The translations under genes and the position numbers were made by a program. Below, one piece after another: positions 154 to 64,000 of a stretch of DNA of 64,000 nucleotides. Source of the stretch: Candidatus Levybacteria bacterium RIFCSPHIGHO2_01_FULL_40_16. GTDB taxonomy: Bacteria > Patescibacteriota > Microgenomatia > Levybacterales > UBA12049. The notes under the pieces were generated by a model, which saw only the letters and a program-made list of their open reading frames with translations, did no database searches and was not told the DNA's origin. The DNA lies in contig MFNS01000005.1 in the NCBI GenBank assembly GCA_001783805.1, positions 1,636-65,635 of the forward strand, read 5' to 3'. The number at the start of each line of letters is the position of its first letter. Position 1 is the stretch's first letter.

Positions 154-272
154 TCTCTGGTAATTAGAGCGGTGTGGAACCACCTTTTCCCATTCCGAAC
201 AGAGAAGTGAAACGCGCCAGCGCTCACGATACTTTAGGTGTATGCCTAAGGGACAATAGGTCATTGCCAGGG
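154..272 (+). rRNA. rrf: 5S rRNA
   Basis: About 119 nt carrying the 5S hallmark CCCATTCCGAACAGAGAAGT...; the 5' TCTGGTAA...and the 3' ...GGTCATTGCCAGG ends pair. It lies directly downstream of the 23S end. Confidence 0.8.
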
Positions 273-17566: not shown

Positions 17567-17639
17567 GGGCCTGTAGCACAGTTGGTAATGCGCTGCATTC
17601 GCATTGCAGAGATCAGCGGTTCGAATCCGCTCAGGTCCA
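17567..17639 (+). tRNA. tRNA-Ala (anticodon CGC)
   Basis: Cloverleaf with acceptor GGGCCTG/CAGGTCC including the G3:U70 Ala identity pair. Anticodon loop TTCGCAT, T-loop GGTTCGAATCC. No encoded CCA. Confidence 0.8.
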
Positions 17640-17641
17640 CT

Positions 17642-17712
17642 GGGCCTGTAGTACACCGGTAGTATAACTCCATGGCATGGAGTAGAAAGGGGTTCAATTC
17701 CCCTCAGGTCCA
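17642..17712 (+). tRNA. tRNA-Ala (anticodon GGC)
   Basis: Same acceptor stem with G3:U70. Anticodon loop ATGGCAT, T-arm AGGGGTTCAATTCCCCT. It starts 2 nt after the first tRNA. Confidence 0.8.
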
Positions 17713-32943: not shown

Positions 32944-34170
32944 TTGTTAATGAATTCAAAGCTGCTCGTATTCCTTTTGATAATTCTTAGCTTCAGATTC
33001 TATTATTTTTATCGCAACCAACCGCAATTAATGGATGGACAGATGCTTAGTTTTGAGGCGGCAATTCTATCTCAACCGCAGGCGGTTAACAGTCAACAGA
33101 TAATTGTTGCTAATTATCAGAATCAATCCTTCGGCGGGCTCAGGATCAGAATCGCAACCGGCCGTTTTCCGGAATTTAGTTATGGAGATTTCGTGCGTAT
33201 TTCAGGTTCCATAAGCAGTAAGAATGGTCGAGTGCTAATGTATTTTCCCAAAATTGAAGCAATTAATAATTCTTCCAATATCTTGCAGTCAAGCTTGAAA
33301 AACATAAATATACTCCGGCAAAAACTGATTATCTTATTTTCCAAAACACTTCCATCGCCGTCTTCAAGTCTTCTTCTGGGAATAATTTTTGGAATAAAAG
33401 AGCAAATGCCCAAAGATTTTTCTGACAACTTAAGAACCTCGGGAGTTTTTCATGTGATTGCCGCATCCGGAATGAACGTTACTTTAATCGGGGGATTTAT
33501 CAGTACGTTTTTTGCCTTTTTCGTTAAAAGGCAAATTGCAATTGGCTTAAGTATTTTAGGAATTTTATTTTACGCAGTTTTGGCAGGGCTTGAACCGTCA
33601 ATTATCAGAGCATCAATCATGGGAATTCTGGTTTTTTCTGCTCAAATTATGGGCAGGCAAACTCTGGCCATAAATGGTTTGACTTTGGCAGGGTTTGGAA
33701 TGCTTTTTATTGATCCAATGCTCCTGTCGGATGTGGGTTTTCAGCTTTCCTTTGCGGCAACACTCGGACTTATTCTTATTCCAAAAATTAGGGCGATTGG
33801 GAGAATTTGGGTGATTGGCAATGACATAAATACTACAATTGCTGCACAAGTTGCCACTTTGCCGATTCTTCTGGCGAATTTTGGAACTTATTCAATCTAT
33901 TCTATCCTAGTCAATGGATTGGTGCTTTGGACAGTGCCGATATTAATGATGATCGGAGGAATCGGAGCTGTCCTAGGGCTGATTTTAGAGCCTTTTGGGC
34001 AATTATTAATCTATTTATCCTTCCCGCTTTTGCTTTATTTTGAAACAATAGTAAATTTCTTCGGAGAAATTGGCGGAATAATGGCACTTAAAAATTTTCC
34101 TTGGCAATTTACTGTCGGATATTATTGCTTGTTAATTTCGGTATTGCTTATTTTTAAAAGAGGAAAATGA
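32944..34170 (+). CDS. comEC: ComEC/Rec2 DNA-uptake channel (DUF4131 + Competence domain)
   Basis: Multi-TM with LRTSGVFHVIAASGMNVTLIGG, the ComEC competence-domain signature. Confidence 0.85.
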   Translation: MLMNSKLLVFLLIILSFRFYYFYRNQPQLMDGQMLSFEAAILSQPQAVNSQQIIVANYQNQSFGGLRIRIATGRFPEFSYGDFVRISGSISSKNGRVLMYFPKIEAINNSSNILQSSLKNINILRQKLIILFSKTLPSPSSSLLLGIIFGIKEQMPKDFSDNLRTSGVFHVIAASGMNVTLIGGFISTFFAFFVKRQIAIGLSILGILFYAVLAGLEPSIIRASIMGILVFSAQIMGRQTLAINGLTLAGFGMLFIDPMLLSDVGFQLSFAATLGLILIPKIRAIGRIWVIGNDINTTIAAQVATLPILLANFGTYSIYSILVNGLVLWTVPILMMIGGIGAVLGLILEPFGQLLIYLSFPLLLYFETIVNFFGEIGGIMALKNFPWQFTVGYYCLLISVLLIFKRGK

Positions 34171-45934: not shown

Positions 45935-46324
45935 CTAAAAAGGCTCTTTTTGTTTGAAGCTTACGATAAATATTGTAAAGATGATTGCTTCCACGAGAAG
46001 GCAGTATTGGCAGAAGGCGTGTAGGACAAAGGCTTGAATGTACAGAAGGACAATTGAGACCGCAACTCCGGCTAAAGTGAGCCATTTAAAATATTTAATC
46101 CAGCCCAAAAGCAAAAGAAAAATAAGCACGAGGAAAAACAGGCTTCCGAAAAGAGAAATAGGAACACCGAAAATCGTGGCGAATTGACTTGTCAGGACTT
46201 TTTCGCAGCCATGGGTTATGCTACAGGGCGGAATAATGTTTTTGTAATGAACAATGGTTAAATAACTGCTGTCGAAAAATCCTGCAAGGGAGAGAATTAA
46301 GAGGACAATTTTTTTAAGAGTCAT
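45935..46324 (-). CDS. Vitamin K epoxide reductase (VKOR) family membrane protein
   Basis: Four TM helices with a loop Cys pair (PPCSITHGCEKV) and a TM CxxC (FCQYCLL), as in bacterial VKOR homologues. Confidence 0.7.
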   Translation of the reverse strand: MTLKKIVLLILSLAGFFDSSYLTIVHYKNIIPPCSITHGCEKVLTSQFATIFGVPISLFGSLFFLVLIFLLLLGWIKYFKWLTLAGVAVSIVLLYIQAFVLHAFCQYCLLVEAIIFTIFIVSFKQKEPF

Positions 46325-47041: not shown

Positions 47042-47112
47042 TCGGGGTGCTGGGAATTGAACCCAGTCTATACGCACCCGAAGCGTACGTACTACCGTCA
47101 TACTCCACCCCG
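47042..47112 (-). tRNA. tRNA-Pro (anticodon CGG)
   Basis: The reverse complement folds as a cloverleaf: acceptor CGGGGTG/CACCCCG, anticodon stem TACGC/GCGTA with loop TTCGGGT, T-arm CTGGGTTCAATTCCCAG. Confidence 0.75.
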
Positions 47113-47116
47113 ATTG

Positions 47117-47191
47117 TGTCCCTGGGGGGAATCGAACCTCCGACAACCCCCTTAGGACGGGGGTGCTCTAATCCAACTGAGCTACAGGGAC
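47117..47191 (-). tRNA. tRNA-Arg (anticodon CCT)
   Basis: Reverse complement GTCCCTGTAGCTCAGTTGGATTAGAGCACCCCCGTCCTAAGGGGG...: D-arm GCTC/GAGC, anticodon loop GTCCTAA. The T-stem has one A.C mismatch. Confidence 0.7.
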
Positions 47192-53267: not shown

Positions 53268-54410
53268 ATGGCCAAATTAAAAATTGCCCTTTTGGCTCCG
53301 TTGAAAAGGCCGATAAATCCCCAGACGACTGTCAGCAGGAATAGAATTGTTGCCGATTTGGCGCTCGGACTGACACAGAAAGACCATAGCGTAACAATTT
53401 TTGGCACAGCTGATTCATATTTACCCGGAGTTGAAATAATAGGAGTTGTTAATAAGGGTTTGGTAGAGCTTCCGCCAACAGAAAATCCGTTTTATACGGA
53501 CACGGCTTATATTACTCACGATATTATGCAGGTTTTGACAGTACAAGATAAGTTTGATGTGATTCATAATCACATGTATCCGGAATTTTTACCTCTGATT
53601 GCGCAAAAACTATTTAGAAAGCCTCTGATTACAACTGTACATTCGCAGGCAACGAAAGAACTTGCAATGGCGATTTCCGATACAAAGGGGACAAGCCGGC
53701 TGATATCTATTTCGGAAAGCGCAAAAAAAGCGCTCGGTCTGGAAGCAGCTGTAATTTACAACGGTATTGACACAAATTTATACGTTCCGAATGAAGCGTC
53801 TGCAAAAACCTATTTATTCTTTATCGGCAGGATGAGTAAAGCCAAAGCAAACGGAAAATTCCTTGATCCTAAAGGCGCAGGCAATGCTTTGGAAGTTGCC
53901 AAGGCAATGGGTGAAGATCTTAAAATTGTCGGAAATGTTGAAGATAGAAAATTTTATGATGAAATTATCGCCCCAAATTTATCGGACAAAATTCAATTTG
54001 TCGGAGATGTATCAAGTGAACAAACGTTAAGCAGGGAACAGATGATAAGCCTTCATCAAAATGCGAAAGCCTTTCTTTTTCCAATAAATTGGGAAGAGCC
54101 ATTTGGTCTGGTAATGACAGAGGCAATGGCCTGCGGAACTCCGGTTATTGCCTACAATCGAGGAAGCGTTTCTGAGTTGGTGCGAGATGGTCTTACCGGG
54201 TTTGTTATAGAGCCGGAAGAATCTGAAAGCGAATCAAGATTTGTGATTAAGAAAAAAGGGATGGAAGGCTTAATCGAAGCGGTTAAAAGAATAGGGGAGA
54301 TAGACAGAAAAGCTTGCCGGGAGCACGTTTTGCAAAAATTCAGCATGGAAAAAATGGTTGATAATTACGAAAAACTCTATTACGAGATAATAGATAATAA
54401 GAATGAGTGA
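53268..54410 (+). CDS. GT4-family glycosyltransferase
   Basis: ...INWEEPFGLVMTEAMACGTPVIAYNRGSVSELV motif. Confidence 0.85.
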   Translation: MAKLKIALLAPLKRPINPQTTVSRNRIVADLALGLTQKDHSVTIFGTADSYLPGVEIIGVVNKGLVELPPTENPFYTDTAYITHDIMQVLTVQDKFDVIHNHMYPEFLPLIAQKLFRKPLITTVHSQATKELAMAISDTKGTSRLISISESAKKALGLEAAVIYNGIDTNLYVPNEASAKTYLFFIGRMSKAKANGKFLDPKGAGNALEVAKAMGEDLKIVGNVEDRKFYDEIIAPNLSDKIQFVGDVSSEQTLSREQMISLHQNAKAFLFPINWEEPFGLVMTEAMACGTPVIAYNRGSVSELVRDGLTGFVIEPEESESESRFVIKKKGMEGLIEAVKRIGEIDRKACREHVLQKFSMEKMVDNYEKLYYEIIDNKNE

Positions 54411-55266
54411 AGCAGGAGATTCTTTAGAAATTAGACCTGAGTCAAAACAAACGACAGGATCCGCAGATACGCCAAAAACTGCAGAAATTCAAAAAACTTC
54501 TTTAGACGCGATTCTCGTTTTTGGCCAGGGACCGGTAATTGAAAAAGACACAAGACTGAAAGCAGGGGAAACTCCTAAGGGAAAAGGATCAGAAGATATA
54601 AATTTCTGGGGAAAGACCTTGGCGGAGGCGGCAGCTCAGCTTTACAAGCGGGGACAAACAAGAGAGATTATTATAATGGGTGGGAGGACAGGCGGAGCAG
54701 AATACGATTCGGAGGCGGATTTGATTGCACAGGCGCTTGTTGCTCATGGCGTTCCGGCGCATGCAATTAAGAAAGAAGACATGTCCACAAATACCTTGGA
54801 GAATCTCGTTAATGTTCTTAATGAACAGCTTGATAAACAGCCACGTTATAATAATCTTGGAATTTTGACAGCTAACTATCATCTTCCCCGAACGCAAATG
54901 CTCATGGAGCTGTTTGATATTCCTTATAAGTCAGCTTTTTCCGCAGAAGAAGTCTTAAGATATGTGGCACGTGAAAGGGAGAATTGGGATAATGACAAAC
55001 TATTAGAGATTGAGAGAAGATTAAATATGGGAGAAGCTTCTAAAGCTCCCGCTTCCTCTAAGGATAAGGTGGATACTTTTTATCAGGAAAAACAGGGCAC
55101 GGAAAAAAAGAATATCGTAAGGCGTGGGCAGGAAGAGGATGTTTGGAGCAAGGCACTTCTGGACATGCCGGAATATTGGATAAGCTATGTAGGGCGTCTT
55201 CAGAGCGGAGAGGATAAGGCGGATTTTGGCTGTTCAAGATCAGAAAATGCTTGCAGAAAAGTTTGA
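54403..55266 (+). CDS. DUF218 (YdcF/ElyC-like) domain protein
   Basis: AILVFGQGPV...IIIMGGRTGGAEYDSEADLIAQAL...STNTLENL matches the DUF218 pattern. It overlaps the upstream GT4 by 8 nt. Confidence 0.65.
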   Translation: MSEAGDSLEIRPESKQTTGSADTPKTAEIQKTSLDAILVFGQGPVIEKDTRLKAGETPKGKGSEDINFWGKTLAEAAAQLYKRGQTREIIIMGGRTGGAEYDSEADLIAQALVAHGVPAHAIKKEDMSTNTLENLVNVLNEQLDKQPRYNNLGILTANYHLPRTQMLMELFDIPYKSAFSAEEVLRYVARERENWDNDKLLEIERRLNMGEASKAPASSKDKVDTFYQEKQGTEKKNIVRRGQEEDVWSKALLDMPEYWISYVGRLQSGEDKADFGCSRSENACRKV

Positions 55267-55423
55267 TATTGATTTGACGGTTGATGTGGATGAAGTTATT
55301 AAGCAAAAATTATTGTTAATTACAAGGACACTGCCTGATCTCGAAAAAGAGATTGGGAAAGATTGGTCACCCGAAGTAAAGGCAAAACTTGATAAGATTA
55401 TAGAACAAAGGCAAAAATAAATT

Positions 55424-56860
55424 ATGCAGCTTAAAATTTTAATTACGGGTTACGAGGGAGCGCCATTTTATAAAAAGGGAGGACTTGGGGATGTAATGGA
55501 ATCTTTGCCCAAAGCTCTTGCCAAAATCGGAATAGATGTTAAGGCGGTTATTCCTTATTATTATTGCATAAAAGAAAAATATCATTTGGAAAAAGAGGGA
55601 GAATTTACGGTGACATTTGGATCGGAAACAGAGCATCTGGGAATATACTCTACCCTGCTTCCAAACACCAAAGTCCCTTTTTATTTTTTGGAGAACAGAA
55701 AATATCTTTTTTCAAGCAATGCCGGAGGTAAAAACAAAAGAATAGAGCAGTTTGCTTTTTTTAATCTTGCAGTTGCGCATTTTGTCAATTGGGTCTCTGA
55801 ACATCATCATTGGTCGCCGGCCTTGATTCACTGCAATGATTGGCATACCGCACTTATTCCTTTAATTCTGAAGAAGAAAATAAAATCTTCAATCCCTACG
55901 CTTTTAACCATTCACAATCTTCTTTATCAGGGAGTTGGGTCACTGCGGGTTTTAGATCTTTTGAATATGAAAAATGAAGAGACAAAAGAGCTGAAAAAGG
56001 GAAAACCGGCAACAGAAATGAATATTTTGGGGGAAGGAATTATCTATGCGACCCGGGTTTCTACGGTTTCCGTTTCTTACGCGAAAGAAATTGCCAGCGA
56101 TTATGACAGAAGTCCGATAGGACCCTTTCTTAAGAAAAGGGAAGAGGAGTGCTGCAATAAAGACGGGAAAATATTGGGCATTCACAATGGCATAGATTAT
56201 GATATTTGGAATCCGGCAGTAGATGAACTTCTATATCATAAATTCGATATGAATACTTGGGAAGCCTGCAAGAAAGACAACAAGAAAGATTTGTTGGAAA
56301 GTCTGGGATTGCCGGATAAACCGACTTTTTGTTTTGTGGGTAGAATGGTCAAGCAGAAAGGTCTAGACGTCTTGATAAAAGCAATTAATCGAATTTCTCG
56401 CCTTGATGTTAATGTAATAATTTTAGGCTCCGGAAATTTGAAAATACAAAAAAACGTTTCGAAGATAGCCAACAAATTTCCTTGGGTTAAAGCGGAATTT
56501 GTTTATAGCGAAGAGCTAGCCCATAAGCTTTATGCCGGATCTGATTTTATTATCATTCCCTCGCGTTACGAACCTTGCGGGTTGATACAGATGATCGCAA
56601 TGAGATATGGAACGATACCTATAGCATCGCGGACAGGCGGATTGCAAGACTCAATTATGCATGGGAAAAATGGTTTTCTTTTTGCTAAAGGTAGGTCAAT
56701 CAGGCTGAAAAAAGCCATTGAGCACGCCCTAAATGTTTACAAAAATAAAGAACAGTATAGAAAAATGGTGGAGCGGGCAATGAAAACTGATTTTTCCTGG
56801 GATAAGAGCGCTTTATTGTATAAAAAACTGTACGAGGAAATGCTGACAATTGACAAGTAA
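55424..56860 (+). CDS. glgA: GT5-family glycosyltransferase (glycogen/starch-synthase-like)
   Basis: N-terminal KKGGLGDVMESLPKAL is the GlgA-type K-x-GGL signature; C-terminal GT-B Rossmann fold. The substrate (glycogen versus another alpha-glucan) is unresolved. Confidence 0.75.
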   Translation: MQLKILITGYEGAPFYKKGGLGDVMESLPKALAKIGIDVKAVIPYYYCIKEKYHLEKEGEFTVTFGSETEHLGIYSTLLPNTKVPFYFLENRKYLFSSNAGGKNKRIEQFAFFNLAVAHFVNWVSEHHHWSPALIHCNDWHTALIPLILKKKIKSSIPTLLTIHNLLYQGVGSLRVLDLLNMKNEETKELKKGKPATEMNILGEGIIYATRVSTVSVSYAKEIASDYDRSPIGPFLKKREEECCNKDGKILGIHNGIDYDIWNPAVDELLYHKFDMNTWEACKKDNKKDLLESLGLPDKPTFCFVGRMVKQKGLDVLIKAINRISRLDVNVIILGSGNLKIQKNVSKIANKFPWVKAEFVYSEELAHKLYAGSDFIIIPSRYEPCGLIQMIAMRYGTIPIASRTGGLQDSIMHGKNGFLFAKGRSIRLKKAIEHALNVYKNKEQYRKMVERAMKTDFSWDKSALLYKKLYEEMLTIDK

Positions 56861-56884
56861 CAATTAACAGGTGACAATTAAACT

Positions 56885-57793
56885 ATGGATTTTCAATTTT
56901 TACAAAATCCGCTAAGTAAAAAATGGGTGATTTTGGCGCCTCGGAGGGCAAAACGTCCGGATATAGCAAAAGGAATGGAGCCGGTTTGCCCCTTTTGTCC
57001 GGGAAAAGAGGGTCAAGAGAAAGAAGTTTATCGGATTGGCGGCAGGGATACGGACAGCAAATGGCAAATCCGTGTATTAAATAATAAATTTCCTTTCGCA
57101 CCCATTCATGAAATCGTCATTCTTTCTCCGGATCATCACAAAAGCTTTGGCGAATTATCTCTATCGCAAGTCGAATTGATTTTAAAAACTTACCGCCAGC
57201 GTTACAATACCCACAAAGAAAAAGGACAAGTGTATATTTTTCATAATCATGGGGCGGCGGGAGGAGAGAGTTTACCTCATCCGCACACGCAACTTGCAGT
57301 AATACCCTCGGAAATAACTTTGGATATTCCCCGTCTGGCAACTCCAATGGAAATGGAAATTGCGGCAAAAGACCAGATCTTCAAGGAAACCAAGTATTTT
57401 GCGATCTTTTGCCCTAAAACTTCACAGTGGCCTGATGAGGTTTGGATCGCACCAAAGGAGCGGGGGAATCTTTTCAGTTCAATCAAAGATCCACAGATTT
57501 CGGATTTGGCATTTGCGCTTTCACGGTTAATCCAAATTTTTGACCTTCGCCACGGCTTGGAATTTCCATTTAATTTTTATATTTATCCGGGAGGGGATTG
57601 GTACTTAAGGATTCTTCCCAGAGTTAAGGTTTTGGGCGGATTTGAAGTTGGAACCGGAATCATGGTCAATACCCAAGATCCTAGAGAAACTATTGAATTT
57701 ATCAAAGAACATTTTGATCAGCCAGCAGGCGGAGCGGATGAGGAAAAAATCAGAACAATCCACCGCGCTAATTACCACAAAGAGGGGGTTTAG
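56885..57793 (+). CDS. GalT-like HIT-superfamily nucleotidyltransferase (galactose-1-phosphate uridylyltransferase or ADP-glucose phosphorylase type)
   Basis: Zinc-site CPFCPGKE, the active HPH motif (LPHPHTQL), and a duplicated half-barrel length. Confidence 0.7.
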   Translation: MDFQFLQNPLSKKWVILAPRRAKRPDIAKGMEPVCPFCPGKEGQEKEVYRIGGRDTDSKWQIRVLNNKFPFAPIHEIVILSPDHHKSFGELSLSQVELILKTYRQRYNTHKEKGQVYIFHNHGAAGGESLPHPHTQLAVIPSEITLDIPRLATPMEMEIAAKDQIFKETKYFAIFCPKTSQWPDEVWIAPKERGNLFSSIKDPQISDLAFALSRLIQIFDLRHGLEFPFNFYIYPGGDWYLRILPRVKVLGGFEVGTGIMVNTQDPRETIEFIKEHFDQPAGGADEEKIRTIHRANYHKEGV

Positions 57794-58050
57794 GACCTGG
57801 GGTTGACGTAGATGTGGACTTCGTCTTTATAGACCCTGACAATACCGTTTCCGATTTGAATTTCCCGACTTTCTTTTGGGGTGAGGTGGATGATTACTTT
57901 GTCTTTGATAAGGCTAATGAAGTTTTCATGCTGGCCCAAAATATCGAAAACCCCTTTGTCATTAACAGCGGTTACCGCATAAACCTGTCCGCTATACAAA
58001 ACTCTGTCTCGGTTTTTGATAATAACAGTGAGAATAGAATCTTTAAGCAT
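57790..58050 (-). CDS. atpC: F-type ATP synthase epsilon subunit, beta-sandwich domain only
   Basis: 86 aa matching the epsilon N-terminal pattern (ILTVIIKN...VYAVTAVNDKGVFDILGQHENFISLIKDKVI). No C-terminal helical hairpin. Last gene of the operon. Confidence 0.55.
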   Translation of the reverse strand: MLKDSILTVIIKNRDRVLYSGQVYAVTAVNDKGVFDILGQHENFISLIKDKVIIHLTPKESREIQIGNGIVRVYKDEVHIYVNPRS

Positions 58051-58252
58051 GTTTTCGCCTTCTGCATCTCCATTTCATGTTTGGCTCCGGAAACAGAAAT
58101 TTTCTTGTCGACGGCTCACTTTCTTTTTTGGTTGCGCTTGCGTTATTAATATCTCTTAACAACCTTGATTGCGCAGCCTGATTCTTATCGACTTGCGAAA
58201 ATTTGTTTCCTTCGCCAAATCAGACTTGGTCTCGGCAGACCTAGACTGACAA

Positions 58253-59653
<1,401 letters not shown>

Positions 59654-60520
59654 TCACTTCCAGAGCTGTATGCTGGCGAACTTCTCTGCTTGCCTTTTGT
59701 TTTTTTCCTGGTGTTTAATCCTGTTTTTCGCAAGAATTGCCTGTTTTAATCTGGTTTTTGCATTTTCCGTAGCAGCATCCAAAGAAACCATGCGGGCTGC
59801 AAATTTGGCAAGTTCCGACTCGAAGATTGTCTGGACGAAAATAGACGCAAAGATTTCCTTTTCAAAAAATTCCATGATTTTTTCAAGAGAAGGTTCGAAA
59901 AAGTATCTTGCTTGCGGTCCGCCTTTTTCCCAAGGCAAAGGATCTCCGGAGATATTGGTCACAATCGGAGATTGATTAATTACATTATTAAACTGTTCAT
60001 AAAAAACCAGCACTTTTTCGTATTGAATAAGGTGCTCAACGATTTTCCGGACGACATCGTTATCCATTCGATTGTCGGGGAATTCAAAATAAGTCAGGGG
60101 AAAGCTGATTTTGTCCTCCTTGAAGAATTCAAGCCCAAGACGCCCCAGGATAGCAACATCGCCCGGCTCTTTTTTGAGATTTTCGATAAATACATCATAG
60201 GTTTTGCGGATGACCTCTCCATACAGACCCGTATTAGCAGAGATAAGCAGATAGAGAGTCTTGCCATTCCTTTTTATAAAGGTGAGCTTGGACGGATCTT
60301 TTATTTTCTTGGTTCTCATCAAAAGCTCGATTTGAGTCTTGTAGGATATTTTGACTTGCTGAAAAATTGCATTTATTTCCAGCAAAAAATCCCGGCTTCC
60401 CAAGACGCTACTCCGGATACGGGCCATCCTGGTTGCGGCAATCTCTTCGTACGTTTCCAGTATTGTCTGAAGAGTCGTCAGAAATTCTGTTTCCCGTGTC
60501 AGTTCTCTTTTAGTAACCAT
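59654..60520 (-). CDS. atpG: F-type ATP synthase gamma subunit
   Basis: 288 aa of coiled-coil composition, sitting between alpha and beta as in canonical atp operons. Confidence 0.75.
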   Translation of the reverse strand: MVTKRELTRETEFLTTLQTILETYEEIAATRMARIRSSVLGSRDFLLEINAIFQQVKISYKTQIELLMRTKKIKDPSKLTFIKRNGKTLYLLISANTGLYGEVIRKTYDVFIENLKKEPGDVAILGRLGLEFFKEDKISFPLTYFEFPDNRMDNDVVRKIVEHLIQYEKVLVFYEQFNNVINQSPIVTNISGDPLPWEKGGPQARYFFEPSLEKIMEFFEKEIFASIFVQTIFESELAKFAARMVSLDAATENAKTRLKQAILAKNRIKHQEKNKRQAEKFASIQLWK

Positions 60521-60539
60521 AATGGTTTTTTGTCTTTCT

Positions 60540-62012
60540 TCAGCTTTTTAGACTGGATAAGAGTTGTTCTCCTTTTTCTCTCATAGTTTTTAGCATATCG
60601 TTGAAAGTTTTTGCCTCGGCTATAACCCCATCAATCACTTTGCTAACGTTTGGTTTGGTTTTATATGTTTCGATCATTTTGTTAATGTCTGTTCCGACCG
60701 GCTCAACATTTCTGTTTTGTAAAATATTATCCCAAAGCATGGAAAATAAAAGTATTTGTAAATTAATAGGCATAGTCGTGAAAGGTCCCTGATCCAAAAA
60801 CCTGATCACTCTTTCGCCAACCGCCAAAGTTACCTTGCTGGCTTCGGTGAGCTCTGCTCCAAAATGAGAAAAATTTTGCATTTTTTCGGAAATCGTCAGG
60901 AAAGAAAGAATCTCGCGATTGATGTCTCTTTTCAAGGGAGACTGGGTTTGTCTGCCAACCCTGGTTACGGACAGGAAGGGGTTGATAGCCGGTCTTCTTC
61001 CTTTGGCAAAAAAATCGGAATCAAAATATAAATGGCCGTCTGTCATGGACATAATATTGGTTTGGATATAGCCGGACAAATCCCCCTGTACGGTTTCAGC
61101 TACGGGCAAACAAGTAATTGCCTTTTCGCCTTTAGATGTTTGGAAATTTCCTGCCCGCTCTAAGAGCTTGGCGTGGGTGTAGAAAGTATCTCCGGGGTAG
61201 GAGTTGCGTCCCGGAAATTTTTTGCCCAAGAGCGAAATTTCTCTATAGAATTTGGCATGCGTAGTTAAATCATCAAGTATCAGCAGTACATCGTATCCTT
61301 CGTCTCTAAAATACTCTGCTACAGTCATAGCGGAGAAGGGAACAAGAAAAGAAAGCCCGATGGGATCATCAAAGCCTGTTGCGACAATAATTACCTGATC
61401 GGAAATTCCGTGTTTTATTAAAAAATTTTCAGCATCTTTAATGTCAAGTCTTCTTTTGCCAATCGCAGCGTAGATGCAAATGTGTTTTTGCTTGGCCTGG
61501 GTTAAAATCGTCTGCATCAGAAAATTTGTTTTGCCTGTTTTTCTGTCCCCGATAACCAGTTCTTTTTGGCCGAATCCTAAAGGCATAACCAAGTCGACAA
61601 CCGGTATGCCTGTTTCAAGCTGCTTATTGATGGTTTTTCGGGACAAAATGCCTGCAGGCAAAACATTTATTCCCCGGGTAACAGAGGGTTTTTTATAGGC
61701 AGCCATTGCGGTTAGGGAATTTCCGAGGGGATCAATTGTTCTTCCGAAAAGCTCTTTTCCAACCGGCACTTTGAGGAATTCATTGGTTCTGACTACTTTT
61801 GTGCCATGACTGATGGATTCTTTGAAAAAAACCAACACTACTACGGTATCAGAAGTAAATGACAGCACGATTCCTGTTTTGCCTGTCTCAAAAATGACTA
61901 TTTCATCAGTTTTGACTTTCGGAAGACCGCTGACGTAAACAATTGCATTGGAGGTTTTTTCCACAAAGCCAATTTCCGATATGGAATCTAAGTAAAATTT
62001 AAAATCCTTCAT
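60540..62012 (-). CDS. atpA: F-type ATP synthase alpha subunit
   Basis: ...PLGFGQKELVIGDRKTGKT matches F1-alpha P-loop.IGRGQRELIIGDRQTGKT. An N-terminal beta-barrel is present. Confidence 0.95.
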   Translation of the reverse strand: MKDFKFYLDSISEIGFVEKTSNAIVYVSGLPKVKTDEIVIFETGKTGIVLSFTSDTVVVLVFFKESISHGTKVVRTNEFLKVPVGKELFGRTIDPLGNSLTAMAAYKKPSVTRGINVLPAGILSRKTINKQLETGIPVVDLVMPLGFGQKELVIGDRKTGKTNFLMQTILTQAKQKHICIYAAIGKRRLDIKDAENFLIKHGISDQVIIVATGFDDPIGLSFLVPFSAMTVAEYFRDEGYDVLLILDDLTTHAKFYREISLLGKKFPGRNSYPGDTFYTHAKLLERAGNFQTSKGEKAITCLPVAETVQGDLSGYIQTNIMSMTDGHLYFDSDFFAKGRRPAINPFLSVTRVGRQTQSPLKRDINREILSFLTISEKMQNFSHFGAELTEASKVTLAVGERVIRFLDQGPFTTMPINLQILLFSMLWDNILQNRNVEPVGTDINKMIETYKTKPNVSKVIDGVIAEAKTFNDMLKTMREKGEQLLSSLKS

Positions 62013-62080
62013 ATCGCGAATGCGATTTACACTGATTAGAAACAGATTCTCGCTGATCTCTATCTGCGTCTATCCGCTTT

Positions 62081-62566
62081 TTATCGGCGAGAATCAGGCT
62101 GTATGAGTTTTAGCACGGCATTTTTATTTGCAAAGGTGTCTTCAATGCCCTTTTTAAGAGTAAAGTCAGAATATTTTCCATTAAAGATTACAACCGCGCC
62201 TCCCAGCAAATCTTGCGAAATTTCAATGTCCAGAATATAGCCAATACCCAAAGTTTCCTTGACGAAATTATGGATATTCTCAATTGTTTTGCGGGTCGGA
62301 TCAAAAGCCAGAACAAGCTTAATAACCTTAAATTTTTTTAAAAGCCCCTTCAGAGTTTCAAGAAATCCGGCAACTGTATCCCTGTCATTAATGTCAAGAT
62401 TATTTTTTGAAAAAACCTCCTTTATTTTTTGGGCGGAATTTGAGCTGATTGAGTCGAGCGTCTTTCCCAGCATAAGCGTATCGATTTCGGAAGCAAAACT
62501 GGCTACTTCCTGTACGGTTTTTAAAGAGGTGATCAAGTCAAAATAAATTAAAACGTCCTTCTTCAT
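62081..62566 (-). CDS. atpH: F-type ATP synthase delta (OSCP) subunit
   Basis: 161 aa with a C-terminal LLGGAVVIFNGKYSDFTLKKGIE OSCP-like motif. Positioned between b and alpha. Confidence 0.6.
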   Translation of the reverse strand: MKKDVLIYFDLITSLKTVQEVASFASEIDTLMLGKTLDSISSNSAQKIKEVFSKNNLDINDRDTVAGFLETLKGLLKKFKVIKLVLAFDPTRKTIENIHNFVKETLGIGYILDIEISQDLLGGAVVIFNGKYSDFTLKKGIEDTFANKNAVLKLIQPDSRR

Positions 62567-62571
62567 TTCAA

Positions 62572-63273
62572 CTACTTAAACACGCCTCCTTTCTTAGCTT
62601 TTTCCAGAGATTTCTCGATTAAGTCTTCATGGTCAGCAAGGCTAAGCGCTTTTCCCAAGACCTCCTTGGTTATTTTTTCCAAAAGTTCATAAATTCCTGA
62701 ATCTATTTTTTGCAACTCTTCCTTTTTATAATCTTCCAGTTCTTTTTTTGAAGCTAGGTAATCGGTATTTATTTTTTCCCTGACTTCCTTTTGGGAAAAG
62801 AGAGTTAATTTTTGCATCGACTCTTTAAAATTTTTCACCTCTGCCATGGTGTTTTCCTCGATGTCCTTTGATACGTTCTGAAATACTTCGATGTTGTTTG
62901 TTTTTAGATCTTTAAGGACTTGAGAATAAATATTGGCAAAATCGGAAGTTGCTTTTTCAAACTCTTTAATTTGGATGGAGGAGATGCGCGCCAAATTCTC
63001 CTTAAAGTTCTCAGAAGCAATGTCGGTTGACAGCGTAACCTTATTGATGATATCCAAAGCCTGATTATTGGCGTCATCGATGATTTTTATTGCTTTTGCT
63101 CTGGCTATATCGAGTAAGTCCGCATTCTTTTTATAAGCTTCATCTTTCAGGTTCAGGTTGGCATGGAGGGTTTTTGTAATGCGTGATAAATAAAAAACAA
63201 TCGCTACCAGAGTTAGGGTTAGGATCAGTATGCTGACTGCCATATCGAAAAATATTATGGGCGTAATATTCAT
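62572..63273 (-). CDS. atpF: F-type ATP synthase b subunit (long form)
   Basis: Single N-terminal TM, then a long charged coiled coil. Positioned upstream of delta. Confidence 0.6.
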   Translation of the reverse strand: MNITPIIFFDMAVSILILTLTLVAIVFYLSRITKTLHANLNLKDEAYKKNADLLDIARAKAIKIIDDANNQALDIINKVTLSTDIASENFKENLARISSIQIKEFEKATSDFANIYSQVLKDLKTNNIEVFQNVSKDIEENTMAEVKNFKESMQKLTLFSQKEVREKINTDYLASKKELEDYKKEELQKIDSGIYELLEKITKEVLGKALSLADHEDLIEKSLEKAKKGGVFK

Positions 63274-63280
63274 ATTTTTT

Positions 63281-64000
63281 CTAGAGAATAAGAATCAGAT
63301 AGCCAATTCCAAGTCCGACAAGTATAATCACAATCATAAAGGCAAGATTAAGAGCCAGATTTAGCTGAATTGTCCGGCTGGCTAAGGGGTTTCTTCCCAA
63401 AGCTTCAACTCCGCGCGTGGTAACTCGGCCGAAGTAAACAAAACCGATAGTAAACGAAATTAAAACTATACCCACTGCCAAAACGTATCTAAGCGAGGTT
63501 GCCTGAGTTAAAGTGCTAGGGTCTGATGCGTTTCTTAGGATCTCCAAAATGTTAGTTTTGGCGTCTACAAAAGAGGCGTTGAAGTGGGGGGCAACAGCCA
63601 CCAGGATTTTTCCGGTCGCCTTCTGATTTGAATTGCTGTAATCTTCTAAGGCAGTTCCCAAAACCATGCCGTTTCTGGTTGCTTTTTGACCGATACCCGC
63701 AATGGTTGAGGTAGTAATAAAGTCGTTTTTCTTGATATCTCCATTGATTGAGGAAACTAACACATTGGCCTTGCCCATCGTTGTGACCGGTTTTGTTTGC
63801 GGATCACTGGTATTTTGCAGAAAAATAGAGGGCGACTGTGTGTAGATGCCGTACATATTTGAGTCATAGGCTGTGGCTGTCAGTCCATAACCTTTGGGTG
63901 TTGAGGCAATGATGCTGCCGTCTGCAACGTCATTATCGATAATGGGAATGGAGATTGCGGTACCGACAGATTTACTTTGGGCATAAGCTAAGATTGGCAA
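63281..64000 (-). CDS. Secreted-domain protein ending in a c-subunit-like 2-TM hairpin that lacks the ion-binding carboxylate; 5' end beyond the window
   Basis: The C-terminal 70 aa align to ATP synthase subunit c (VGIVLISFTIGFVYFG...EALGRNPLASRTIQ...LAFMIVIILVGLGIGYLIL). Helix 2 has no Asp/Glu at the proton-binding position. About 170 aa of Ser/Thr-rich non-membrane sequence precede it with no internal ATG. The ORF continues past nt 64000. Confidence 0.4.
   Translation of the reverse strand: MPILAYAQSKSVGTAISIPIIDNDVADGSIIASTPKGYGLTATAYDSNMYGIYTQSPSIFLQNTSDPQTKPVTTMGKANVLVSSINGDIKKNDFITTSTIAGIGQKATRNGMVLGTALEDYSNSNQKATGKILVAVAPHFNASFVDAKTNILEILRNASDPSTLTQATSLRYVLAVGIVLISFTIGFVYFGRVTTRGVEALGRNPLASRTIQLNLALNLAFMIVIILVGLGIGYLILIL

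What the first reader, a model, noticed from the sequence alone, without database searches (positions are those of the whole stretch)
63281..64000. Gene at the atpE position of the F-ATPase operon encodes a long secreted-type domain fused to a c-subunit-like hairpin without the proton-binding carboxylate
The order on the minus strand is this gene, then b, delta, alpha, gamma, beta, epsilon (58253-63273 plus 57790-58050). That is canonical with c at the first position. The last 70 aa align to subunit c, including the polar loop (GRNPLASRT versus ARQPEL.P.L.T). At the position of the essential Asp/Glu of helix 2, however, there is only LAFMIVIIL. The GxGxGxG packing motif of helix 1 is degenerate. 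At least 170 aa of Ser/Thr-rich non-membrane sequence precede the hairpin with no internal start codon or Shine-Dalgarno, and the ORF continues past the window. Either the ATP synthase of this organism has an unusual rotor, or this is a c-like paralogue with another role and the true atpE/atpB lie upstream. The epsilon subunit is also truncated to the beta-sandwich (86 aa), with no inhibitory C-terminal helices.
Basis: partly seen in the sequence, partly recalled or inferred. Interest (0 to 1): 0.65.

Follow-up and report, generated by a model that had tools for sequence, protein, structure and literature searches.

The report
Carboxylate-free c-subunit fused to surface domain
In a large group of ultra-small (CPR) bacteria, the rotor subunit of the ATP synthase has lost the acidic residue needed to carry protons and gained an outward-facing domain borrowed from phage tail fibres. 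With no subunit a found nearby either, this "ATP synthase" probably no longer moves ions and may do mechanical work at the cell surface.

Summary
Window 63281-64000(-) encodes residues 19-257 of a 257-aa Candidatus Levybacteria protein, here called cX. It has a Sec signal peptide, a ~140-aa extracytoplasmic beta domain and a C-terminal two-helix hairpin.

- **Hairpin:** it is a true homologue of F-type subunit c by profile and by fold, with an invariant R-N-P loop. The ion-binding Glu/Asp is hydrophobic in all 347 family members examined. No other carboxylate lies in either helix.
- **Operon:** cX opens a cX-b-delta-alpha-gamma-beta-epsilon operon in every one of 80 fetched species loci, out of 394 matches.
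- **Missing Fo parts:** no subunit a, canonical c or other recurrent polytopic protein lies within 10 kb.
- **F1:** its catalytic motifs are intact.
- **Outer domain:** it resembles phage tail-fibre (pre-neck appendage, Peptidase_G2) and cement domains. A paralogous copy sits in a giant surface protein with an N-terminal MerR DNA-binding (HTH) domain. That protein is encoded divergently upstream, across an intergenic region rich in a repeated heptamer.

Best reading: an ATP-hydrolysing F1 motor on a non-ion-translocating ring with an extracellular output. Only a passing remark (Kantor 2013) was found in the literature searched. A genome-wide absence of subunit a could not be tested.

The parts
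63977..64000 (-). End of the Sec signal peptide of cX (residues 19-26). Residues 1-18 lie beyond the window.
   Evidence: The full-length P0001 / L001 9220-9993 starts MKYTALVASIFLLLVTGFLPILAYA|Q. Ala25 is conserved in at least 90% of 43 diverse homologues.
63560..63973 (-). Extracytoplasmic beta domain of cX (residues ~28-165). It is of the phage tail-fibre C-terminal (pre-neck appendage / Peptidase_G2) and cement-protein type. Conserved motif: V.VS..NG.I..GD.ITSS..PGVG.KA...G.V.G.ALE.
   Evidence: AlphaFold2 predicts an all-beta domain with pLDDT above 90. Foldseek against BFVD matches phage pre-neck appendage and tail proteins at E=1e-11. Foldseek against the PDB matches Borrelia phage BB1 procapsid outer-shell chains at E=6.6e-5, and weaker XM1 capsid and TW1 capsid entries. 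Weak Pfam hits among 43 members: XM1_gp53_minor_capsid 12, Phage_cement_2 2, Peptidase_G2 1.
63506..63559 (-). Linker with a short amphipathic helix (residues ~166-183).
   Evidence: AlphaFold2 gives pLDDT 59-73 here, with helix 169-177.
63284..63505 (-). C-terminal two-helix hairpin (residues 184-257) homologous to F-type subunit c.
   Evidence: A family profile gives its only significant PDB hits to c subunits, E=4e-5. Foldseek gives target-normalised TM-score 0.75-0.88 and rmsd 1.2-1.8 A to c subunits. 13 of 43 members hit Pfam ATP-synt_C. NCBIfam subunit C scores E=1e-4.
63386..63394 (-). Cytoplasmic loop R221-N222-P223, the counterpart of the R-Q-P loop of subunit c that contacts gamma and epsilon.
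   Evidence: Invariant in 43 diverse homologues and in 345-346 of 347 sequences. Translation checked.
63332..63334 (-). Ile241, at the position of the essential ion-binding Glu/Asp of subunit c.
   Evidence: HMMER alignment to the Spirulina and chloroplast c subunits. In 347 family members this position is I147 V88 L40 A36 F15 G8 M4, and never D or E. Translation checked.
62572..63273 (-). Subunit b (233 aa, one N-terminal TM helix plus a long helix).
   Evidence: A family profile hits PDB ATP synthase subunit b at E=1.7e-7. There is also a weak NCBIfam hit.
62081..62566 (-). Subunit delta / OSCP (161 aa).
   Evidence: A family profile hits OSCP/delta at E=1.5e-8. Pfam OSCP scores E=0.0014.
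60540..62012 (-). F1 alpha (490 aa).
   Evidence: Pfam ATP-synt_ab at 2.8e-63. GDRKTGKT and the Arg-finger context SVTRVG can be read directly in the sequence.
59654..60520 (-). F1 gamma (288 aa).
   Evidence: Pfam ATP-synt at 8.7e-29.
58253..59626 (-). F1 beta (457 aa), with catalytic motifs intact.
   Evidence: PDB F1 beta at E=1e-120. [15 protein letters not shown] and IDNVFRF can be read in the sequence.
57790..58050 (-). Epsilon, beta-sandwich only (86 aa).
   Evidence: Pfam ATP-synt_DE_N at 2.1e-9 covers residues 8-83. The median length is 89 aa in 73 loci.

Best explanation
cX is a derived F-type subunit c. Its hairpin still inserts with the c topology: N-terminus outside, R-N-P loop in the cytoplasm, C-terminus outside. 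It most likely still docks the gamma/epsilon foot of an otherwise ordinary, catalytically competent F1.

Two things have changed. The hairpin has lost the membrane carboxylate that every ion-translocating rotor ring needs. Its outward-facing N-terminus now carries a ~140-aa domain of the phage tail-fibre/cement type. No subunit a is encoded with it.

The complex is therefore most likely not an ATP synthase or ion pump. It is more likely an ATP-hydrolysing F1 motor, or mechanochemical device, seated on a non-conducting proteolipid assembly whose output is a crown of extracellular domains.

The likely partner is the giant surface fibre protein encoded divergently upstream. This protein has an N-terminal cytoplasmic MerR HTH and a single TM helix, and its large remainder is presumably extracellular. 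It carries a paralogue of the cX outer domain. It shares with the operon an intergenic region packed with a repeated TTGGACA element, which suggests co-regulation.

- **Shown:** homology, loss of the carboxylate, fused architecture, operon position, local absence of subunit a, the shared domain, and the enriched motif.
- **Inferred:** ring formation, loss of ion transport, ATP-driven output, and a functional link to the giant protein.
For: **Hairpin**
- Homologous to subunit c.
- R-N-P invariant and Glu217 present in 330 of 347.
- No Asp or Glu at the canonical site in 0 of 347, nor in the core of either TM helix (only 1-2 stray D/E at single TM2 positions). The only conserved polar residues are Asn236 and Thr/Met240.

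**Architecture**
- The same signal-peptide, domain, hairpin layout at ~255 aa is seen throughout the 150 best-scoring representatives. In total 3,221 50%-identity cluster representatives match at E<=1e-3.

**Operon and neighbourhood**
- cX sits directly upstream of the F1 genes in all 80 species loci, out of 394 matches.
- No ATP-synt_A was found among the polytopic ORFs checked against Pfam. No canonical c and no recurrent polytopic protein lies within 10 kb.
- Five loci have only cX-alpha-gamma-beta-epsilon.
- F1 is normal. b and delta are genuine.

**Outer domain and giant protein**
- Fold of the outer domain.
- A paralogous domain in the giant protein, E down to 7e-24.
- A divergent gene starting with a MerR HTH in 62 of 75 loci. 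HTH followed by one TM helix in all 59 examined.
- The heptamer is 24-fold enriched (3.6 against 0.15 per kb) in the upstream non-coding DNA.

**Literature**
- Kantor et al. 2013 (PMC3812714) report for a WWE3 genome (their study recovered complete and essentially complete genomes) that the operon's presumed a, b and c lack homology to known subunits, and that the same TM protein occurs in OP11 operons.
Against: - Genome-wide absence of subunit a was not tested. Only about 10 kb on each side of 82 loci and the 64-kb window were examined.
- Most operons retain b and delta, a peripheral stalk that in known enzymes holds on to subunit a. This fits a still-rotary, stator-containing enzyme. A non-homologous a-like partner may therefore exist elsewhere.
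- Ring formation is unproven. Helix 1 lacks the Gly motif, and the outer domain belongs to families that are typically trimeric (my own knowledge).
- The cX and giant-protein domains are old paralogues at 30-40% identity, not each other's closest relatives. Nothing shows that they interact.
- Synteny with the giant gene could partly reflect shared ancestry within one class.
- There are no expression or biochemical data.
Confidence: 0.55

Rival explanations
1. The complex is still an ion-coupled ATP synthase or pump. A divergent or non-homologous subunit a is encoded elsewhere. The ring binds H+ or Na+ at an unconventional site, for example Asn236 with Thr240 and backbone atoms. The outer domain is only an accessory, perhaps for envelope attachment or assembly.
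For: The full peripheral stalk (b, delta) and an intact F1 are retained in most loci. Asn/His236 is conserved in mid-membrane. Published metabolic reconstructions of CPR bacteria routinely count this operon as an F-type ATPase.
Against: No ionisable residue is conserved in either TM helix across 347 sequences. Every characterised F-, V- or A-type ring needs a carboxylate (established knowledge). No candidate subunit a lies near any of 82 loci. Five lineages show neither b nor delta in the operon. In a WWE3 genome, none of the operon's presumed a, b and c showed homology to known subunits.
Confidence: 0.2
2. cX is a passive membrane and envelope anchor. F1 is tethered to the membrane, and through the outer domain to the wall or S-layer, but does no rotary work there. 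The operon would be a decaying or re-purposed remnant, for instance an ATPase with a regulatory or ATP-buffering role.
For: The ion-coupling parts are lost. The outer domain belongs to families that act as structural cement or assembly modules.
Against: The loop, all F1 catalytic motifs, gamma and epsilon are strongly conserved across cX sequences only about 35-55% identical. That argues for selection on a working rotor-F1 interface. A mere tether would not need gamma/epsilon docking or a peripheral stalk.
Confidence: 0.15
3. cX is a paralogue beside a normal ATP synthase. The organism would have a separate canonical atpB-atpE(-F1) set, and cX with this F1 would form a second, specialised ATPase, as mycoplasmas have type 2/3 F1-like ATPases besides F1Fo.
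For: There is precedent in Mycoplasma (papers listed). Whole genomes were not inspected.
Against: No second set was seen in the 64-kb window or in any locus. The only extra alpha/beta-like hit was Rho. The beta here is a typical housekeeping-like F-type beta, E=1e-120. The WWE3 genome analysis describes a single operon.
Confidence: 0.08
4. Artefact: a frameshift or misassembly has fused a secreted protein to a normal c gene.
For: None found.
Against: The identical protein occurs on 25 contigs. The same architecture occurs in thousands of clusters and 80 species loci. The carboxylate is absent whatever the fusion status. There is no internal start signal.
Confidence: 0.01

Closest known systems
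F-type ATP synthase subunit c (AtpE, Pfam PF00137)
   Same: Two-helix hairpin; a polar cytoplasmic loop (R-N-P against R-Q-P) preceded by a G-x-E-A/G motif; a Gly in helix 2 five to six residues after the ion site; first Fo-type gene before b in the operon. Identity to the Chloroflexus, Spirulina and chloroplast c subunits is 25-29% in structure-based alignments.
   Different: No carboxylate in helix 2 in 0 of 347. No GxGxGxG motif in helix 1. A cleavable signal peptide and a ~140-aa extracytoplasmic domain precede the hairpin. No subunit a accompanies it.
Mycoplasma type 2/3 F1-like ATPases, including the G1-ATPase gliding motor of Mycoplasma mobile (PMC8406192; bioRxiv 10.1101/2024.06.11.597861)
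   Same: F1-derived alpha/beta/gamma machinery detached from ion translocation. Per my own knowledge, the M. mobile motor is thought to drive huge surface 'leg' proteins. That motor associates with a glycolytic enzyme, PGK (abstract listed). Here a phosphoglycerate mutase gene sits inside the operon in about 22 loci. The G1-ATPase beta appears among the PDB hits of this beta.
   Different: Here alpha and beta look like ordinary F-type subunits. b, delta and epsilon are usually retained, and a c-derived membrane subunit is present. The organisms are unrelated (CPR). No dimeric or chain architecture is known. No functional link has been demonstrated.
Proteolipids with carboxylate-free hairpins: the mixed c-ring of Acetobacterium woodii, and V/A-type multi-hairpin c subunits
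   Same: Natural c-type hairpins that lack the ion-binding carboxylate exist and assemble into rings (my own knowledge). The A. woodii c2 subunit (4bem) is among the profile hits.
   Different: In those rings other hairpins keep the carboxylate, so the ring still transports ions. Here the single c-like gene of the operon has none.
Phage tail-fibre / pre-neck appendage C-terminal domain (Pfam Peptidase_G2, PF11962) and phage cement proteins (PF09956, PF23982)
   Same: The fold of the cX outer domain (Foldseek E=1e-11 against BFVD; 6.6e-5 against the PDB) and weak profile hits. The paralogous domain of the giant protein passes the Peptidase_G2 gathering score (27.8 against 25 bits).
   Different: cX members stay below the Pfam thresholds. 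The domain is membrane-tethered to a c hairpin rather than placed at the end of a fibre or on a capsid. Autoproteolysis was not examined.
The 'putative c subunit' of WWE3 and OP11 ATPase operons noted by Kantor et al. 2013 (PMC3812714)
   Same: Most likely the same protein family: a TM protein at the c position in OP11 (Microgenomates) and WWE3 operons, without recognisable homology to known subunits.
   Different: That paper gives one paragraph. It does not recognise the c homology, the missing carboxylate, the signal peptide and phage-like outer domain, or the link to the giant protein. Its sequences were not compared here.

Membership tests
F-type ATP synthase subunit c (ATP-synt_C) | Helical hairpin of two TM helices with a short polar cytoplasmic loop. 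| tested here: met
   AlphaFold2 predicts helices 184-221 and 223-256 at pLDDT ~95. Foldseek gives rmsd 1.2-1.8 A to c subunits.
F-type ATP synthase subunit c (ATP-synt_C) | Significant sequence match to the family profile. | tested here: inconclusive
   No single sequence reaches the Pfam or NCBIfam cut-offs. The best results are E=1e-4, and 13 of 43 members at E<=1. A family profile does give its only significant PDB hits to c subunits, at E=4e-5.
F-type ATP synthase subunit c (ATP-synt_C) | Membrane-embedded Asp/Glu in helix 2 that binds H+ or Na+. | tested here: not met
   The position is Ile241 in the window protein and hydrophobic or Gly in 347 of 347 family members. No conserved carboxylate lies in either helix.
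F-type ATP synthase subunit c (ATP-synt_C) | Gly/Ala-rich GxGxGxG packing motif in helix 1. | tested here: not met
   The consensus is SFxLGFxYFG.
F-type ATP synthase subunit c (ATP-synt_C) | Loop R-Q/N-P that contacts gamma and epsilon. | tested here: met
   R221-N222-P223 is invariant. The contact itself was not tested.
F-type ATP synthase subunit c (ATP-synt_C) | Assembles into a homo-oligomeric ring. | not testable with these tools
   Only single-chain structure prediction is available.
Complete F1Fo ATP synthase | alpha, beta, gamma, delta, epsilon and b present in one operon. | tested here: met
   In 5 of 80 loci, b and delta were not detected in the operon.
Complete F1Fo ATP synthase | Subunit a (ATP-synt_A) providing the ion half-channels and the essential Arg. 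| tested here: not met
   None in the window. None upstream in the extended contigs. None within 10 kb in 82 loci. The rest of each genome could not be searched.
Mycoplasma-type F1-like (type 2/3) ATPases | A second, divergent alpha/beta set alongside a canonical F1Fo operon, without b and delta. | tested here: not met
   The beta is a typical F-type beta, and b and delta are usually present. Co-existence with a canonical operon was not testable.
N-ATPase | Operon atpDCQRBEFAG, with subunit a and a Na+-motif c subunit. | tested here: not met
   The gene order is cX-b-delta-alpha-gamma-beta-epsilon, with no subunit a and no carboxylate.
Phage Peptidase_G2 / cement-protein domains | Fold similarity. 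| tested here: met
   Foldseek E=1e-11 against BFVD and 6.6e-5 against the PDB.
Phage Peptidase_G2 / cement-protein domains | Profile match above the curated threshold. | tested here: not met
   cX members score at best E=0.0019-0.028, below the cut-offs. A profile of the domain finds nothing in the PDB by sequence.
Phage Peptidase_G2 / cement-protein domains | Autoproteolytic cleavage and trimeric assembly. | not tested
   No analysis of a cleavage site or of oligomeric state was possible.

The most novel reading that the evidence does not exclude
A whole class of CPR bacteria (Microgenomates, probably also WWE3) may have converted its only F-type ATPase into an a-less, ion-blind rotary motor. 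Its c-derived ring would carry tail-fibre-type domains outside the membrane and act mechanically on, or assemble, a giant surface fibre. That fibre is tethered by a MerR-type DNA-binding domain and encoded next door under a shared operator. The role could be attachment, retraction or movement on host cells. This would be an independent parallel to the F1-derived gliding motor of Mycoplasma mobile.
Probability: 0.25. Interest if true: 0.92.

Novelty: new variant of a known kind. Interest (0 to 1): 0.75.

Why it matters
Metabolic reconstructions of CPR/Patescibacteria routinely score this operon as "F-type ATPase present". From that they infer ATP synthesis driven by proton-motive force, or proton pumping.

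If the rotor has no ion-binding site and no subunit a exists, that inference is wrong for hundreds of Microgenomates species. The question of how these fermentative episymbionts energise their membrane would then be open again.

For rotary-motor research it would be the first F-type operon whose c subunit is uniformly free of carboxylate and carries an extracellular domain. That points to a natural re-use of F1 torque outside bioenergetics.

The conserved pairing with a giant, HTH-tethered surface protein that shares the domain gives a concrete hypothesis about host attachment in CPR bacteria. It can be tested by structure determination and cryo-electron tomography.

Tried and rejected
- **Window scan for subunit a:** six ORFs with at least 3 predicted TM segments turned out to be ComEC, VKOR, an O-antigen ligase with TPR repeats, and unknowns. 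None was ATP-synt_A.
- **Candidates in other loci:** polytopic ORFs upstream of cX were an EamA transporter and a Wzy_C/TPR protein (one, L059 6355-7425, has no Pfam match). A second alpha/beta-like hit was Rho.
- **The ~1.7-kb gap between cX and b in about 22 loci:** it holds iPGM, not a membrane protein.
- **Concerted evolution:** I tested whether the cX outer domain and the giant-protein domain of the same genome are each other's closest relatives. They are not; the own-genome copy ranks 3rd to 80th.
- **Conserved charged residue in the giant protein's TM helix** (an analogue of the subunit a arginine): none found.
- **Loss of the alpha N-terminus in the five b/delta-less loci:** no clear difference.
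- **Sequence-level PDB hit for the outer domain:** none.
- **Rfam scan of the window:** only 5S rRNA and four tRNAs, and nothing in the 202-nt gap between beta and epsilon.
- **Literature:** seven searches found nothing on this protein beyond Kantor 2013.
Full report
**What is in the window**

Window 63281-64000 on the minus strand is one open frame of 239 codons ending in a stop. The same protein in full is P0001, 257 aa. It was found on 25 contigs from independent assemblies and is named as from Candidatus Levybacteria RIFCSPLOWO2_01_FULL_39, a member of the CPR class Microgenomates. The window therefore misses only 18 codons, which lie within the Sec signal peptide MKYTALVASIFLLLVTGFLPILAYA|Q.

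- Beta is an ordinary F-type beta (E=1e-120 to Bacillus PS3 and other F1 structures). The P-loop, GER.REG and Walker-B motifs can be read in the sequence.
- Alpha carries GDRKTGKT and the Arg-finger context.
- b and delta are weak as single sequences. Profiles built from 26 orthologues hit PDB subunit b (1.7e-7) and OSCP/delta (1.5e-8).
- Epsilon is 86 aa and matches only the beta-sandwich domain. Short epsilons run through the family, with a median of 89 aa in 73 loci.

**The hairpin is a subunit c without its carboxylate**

- A profile of the last ~80 residues from 43 diverse homologues gives its only significant PDB hits to ATP synthase c subunits (best E=4e-5).
- The AlphaFold2 model (mean pLDDT 90) superposes on c subunits of Chloroflexus, Spirulina and chloroplasts at rmsd 1.2-1.8 A and 25-29% identity.
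- 13 of 43 members touch Pfam ATP-synt_C individually.
- In the HMMER alignment, LSLAFM-E-ALTIYG of the c15 ring lines up with LNLAFM-I-VIILVG. The essential Glu is therefore Ile241 (window 63332-63334).
- In 347 distinct family members this position is I, V, L, A, F, G or M and never D or E. No conserved carboxylate lies in either TM helix. The only conserved polar residues are Asn/His236 and Thr/Met240.
- The cytoplasmic loop R221-N222-P223 is invariant, and Glu217 is nearly so. This loop is the counterpart of the R-Q-P loop that contacts gamma and epsilon. Helix 1 has SFxLGFxYFG in place of GxGxGxG.
- The topology is self-consistent. A signal peptide exports the N-terminal domain, helix 1 runs inward, the loop is cytoplasmic and helix 2 runs outward, as in subunit c.
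- No ATG lies between Met131 and the hairpin, and the one in-frame TTG has no Shine-Dalgarno sequence. A separately translated free hairpin is therefore unlikely.

**The outer domain**

Residues ~28-165 are predicted with high confidence as an all-beta domain.
- Foldseek against viral models matches the C-terminal domains of phage pre-neck appendage and tail-fibre proteins (E=1e-11).
- Against the PDB it matches Borrelia phage BB1 procapsid outer-shell chains (E=6.6e-5), with weaker matches to the XM1 capsid and to the TW1 capsid entry.
- Weak Pfam hits agree: XM1_gp53_minor_capsid in 12 of 43 members, Phage_cement_2 in 2 and Peptidase_G2 in 1.
- A sequence profile finds nothing in the PDB.

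**How widespread it is, and what surrounds it**

An exhaustive search of 50%-identity representatives finds 3,221 proteins at E<=1e-3 and 208 at E<=1e-30. Nearly all of the 150 listed are ~255 aa and match end to end.

In a collection with one genome per species, 394 places encode a relative. The 80 fetched come from Levy-, Woese-, Ames-, Shapiro- and Chisholmbacteria and unnamed Patescibacteria. In every locus cX sits directly upstream of the F1 genes. There are three variations.
- About 22 loci have a phosphoglycerate mutase gene between cX and b.
- Five loci have cX followed directly by alpha, with no b or delta detected in the operon.
- Two loci have 23S-IVS-type genes inserted.

Nowhere is there an ATP-synt_A gene, a canonical small c, or any recurrent polytopic membrane protein within about 10 kb. 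Contigs that extend the window upstream show an HTH_32 gene, a Fic-like gene and then a divergent giant gene, not atpB or atpE.

**The giant neighbour**

In 62 of 75 non-redundant loci with enough upstream sequence, a gene transcribed away from cX starts within 2.7 kb. It encodes an N-terminal MerR-type HTH, a single TM helix 80-200 residues later, and then a protein of 1,000 to more than 3,200 aa, presumably extracellular, with FG-GAP repeats, PTL_trimer and a Peptidase_G2 hit.

An HMM of the cX outer domain matches a domain near the C-terminal part of these giant proteins. E-values go down to 7e-24 and cover almost the whole domain. The two copies share the motif V.VS..NG.I..GD..T.S..PG...KA...G...G.A.E. 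They are old paralogues, not each other's nearest relatives.

The non-coding DNA between the two genes is packed with the heptamer TTGGACA/TGTCCAA. Its density is 3.6 per kb, against 0.15 per kb in other non-coding DNA of the same loci. It often occurs as inverted repeats or in 10-12-nt phased arrays. Examples are L001 7512, 7522 and 7534, and L075 AAGTTGGACATTCTA..TAGAATGTCCAAGTT. This looks like an operator shared by the divergent genes. Binding by the giant protein's own HTH is an inference.

**Interpretation**

Every characterised rotary ATPase needs a ring carboxylate and a subunit a arginine to move ions (established knowledge). Here the carboxylate is absent throughout a family whose members are only about 35-55% identical, and no subunit a accompanies the operon. 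Yet the F1 catalytic motifs, gamma, epsilon and the ring's F1-facing loop are conserved.

The best-supported reading is an ATP-hydrolysing F1 on a non-conducting, c-derived membrane assembly whose working end is extracellular (confidence 0.55).

The retained b/delta stalk is the main argument for the rival that a cryptic a-like stator and some unconventional ion site exist (0.2). A passive-anchor reading (0.15) and a specialised paralogue beside a canonical enzyme (0.08) remain possible. An artefact is excluded.

The link to the giant fibre rests on conserved divergent synteny, the shared domain and the shared motif. It is suggestive, not shown.

**Relation to the known**

One paragraph in Kantor et al. 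2013 states that in a WWE3 genome the operon's presumed a, b and c lack homology to known subunits. It adds that the putative c resembles a TM protein in OP11 and WWE3 operons. Nothing further was found in seven literature searches.

The closest functional analogy is the set of Mycoplasma F1-like ATPases, including the M. mobile gliding motor. That motor is associated with a glycolytic enzyme (abstract listed) and, per my own knowledge, with giant surface proteins. Membership of that family fails, because beta is housekeeping-like and b and delta are present.

I file cX as a new variant of the F-type ATPase: a c-derived subunit that fails the defining carboxylate test.

**Limits**

No genome-wide search for atpB was possible. 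Ring formation, stoichiometry, rotation and any interaction with the giant protein are untested.

Noticed in passing
L001 1-7528(-), outside the window. Mapping: window x = L001 73274 - x. Also L014 2655-8789(-), L057 4365-9794(-), L065 4466-9913(-).: A giant gene (1,000 to more than 3,200 aa) is transcribed divergently from the cX operon in 62 of 75 loci. It has an N-terminal MerR-type HTH, one TM helix, a large remainder that is presumably extracellular (FG-GAP, PTL_trimer, Peptidase_G2) and a paralogue of the cX outer domain (hmmsearch E down to 7e-24). A membrane-tethered MerR domain on a giant surface protein is unusual in itself.
   Followed up: partly
L001 7512, 7522, 7534 and 8654; L075, L042 and L022 intergenic regions upstream of cX.: The heptamer TTGGACA/TGTCCAA (extended consensus AAnTTGGACA) is 24-fold enriched in the non-coding DNA between the giant gene and the cX operon. 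It occurs as inverted repeats or 10-12-nt phased direct repeats and looks like a shared operator.
   Followed up: partly
L036 10715-12454(+), L075 10751-12472(+), L065 10754-12433(+), and about 19 further loci.: A 2,3-bisphosphoglycerate-independent phosphoglycerate mutase gene is inserted between cX and b inside the ATPase operon in Woesebacteria-type genomes. This recalls the glycolytic enzyme (PGK) bound to the Mycoplasma mobile F1-like motor.
   Followed up: partly
L041, L057, L058, L063, L087.: In these loci cX is followed directly by alpha-gamma-beta(-epsilon). No b or delta was detected in the operon, so the peripheral stalk may have been lost in one sub-lineage. Whether b and delta are encoded elsewhere is unknown.
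   Followed up: partly
L001 7703-8641(+) and 8695-9111(+); the same arrangement in L006-L020 and other Levybacteria-type loci.: A conserved 312-aa protein (weak Fic/DOC hit) and an HTH_28/HTH_32 protein of 138-206 aa lie between the giant gene and cX. This occurs only in the Levybacteria-type loci.
   Followed up: no
L006/L007 11684-12061 and 12597-13196 (L006 coordinates).: Genes with the 23S_rRNA_IVP domain (PF05635) are inserted between b, delta and alpha in one Levybacteria species.
   Followed up: no
window 58051-58252: A 202-nt non-coding gap separates beta and epsilon. In most related loci the two genes abut or overlap. There is no Rfam match.
   Followed up: partly
window 54403-57793: Convergent with the ATPase operon lie genes for galactose-1-phosphate uridylyltransferase (56885-57793), glycogen-synthase-type GT5 (55424-56860) and DUF218 (54403-55266), which overlap or adjoin glycosyltransferase genes. 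Kantor 2013 describes the same glycogen gene set for WWE3.
   Followed up: no
window 156-272, 17567-17712, 47042-47191, 32944-34170, 45935-46324: Other features of the window: 5S rRNA, two tRNA pairs, a ComEC-type competence protein and a VKOR-family protein.
   Followed up: no
Record titles of L010, L012, L014 and many others.: Many MAG records that carry this clearly Microgenomates operon are titled 'uncultured Gammaproteobacteria' or 'Pseudomonadales'. L010 (CAZDTO010000012.1) has the same gene layout as a contig labelled Levyibacteriota (L011), and the same protein P0099 is encoded on both contigs. These titles appear to be wrong taxonomic labels.
   Followed up: no
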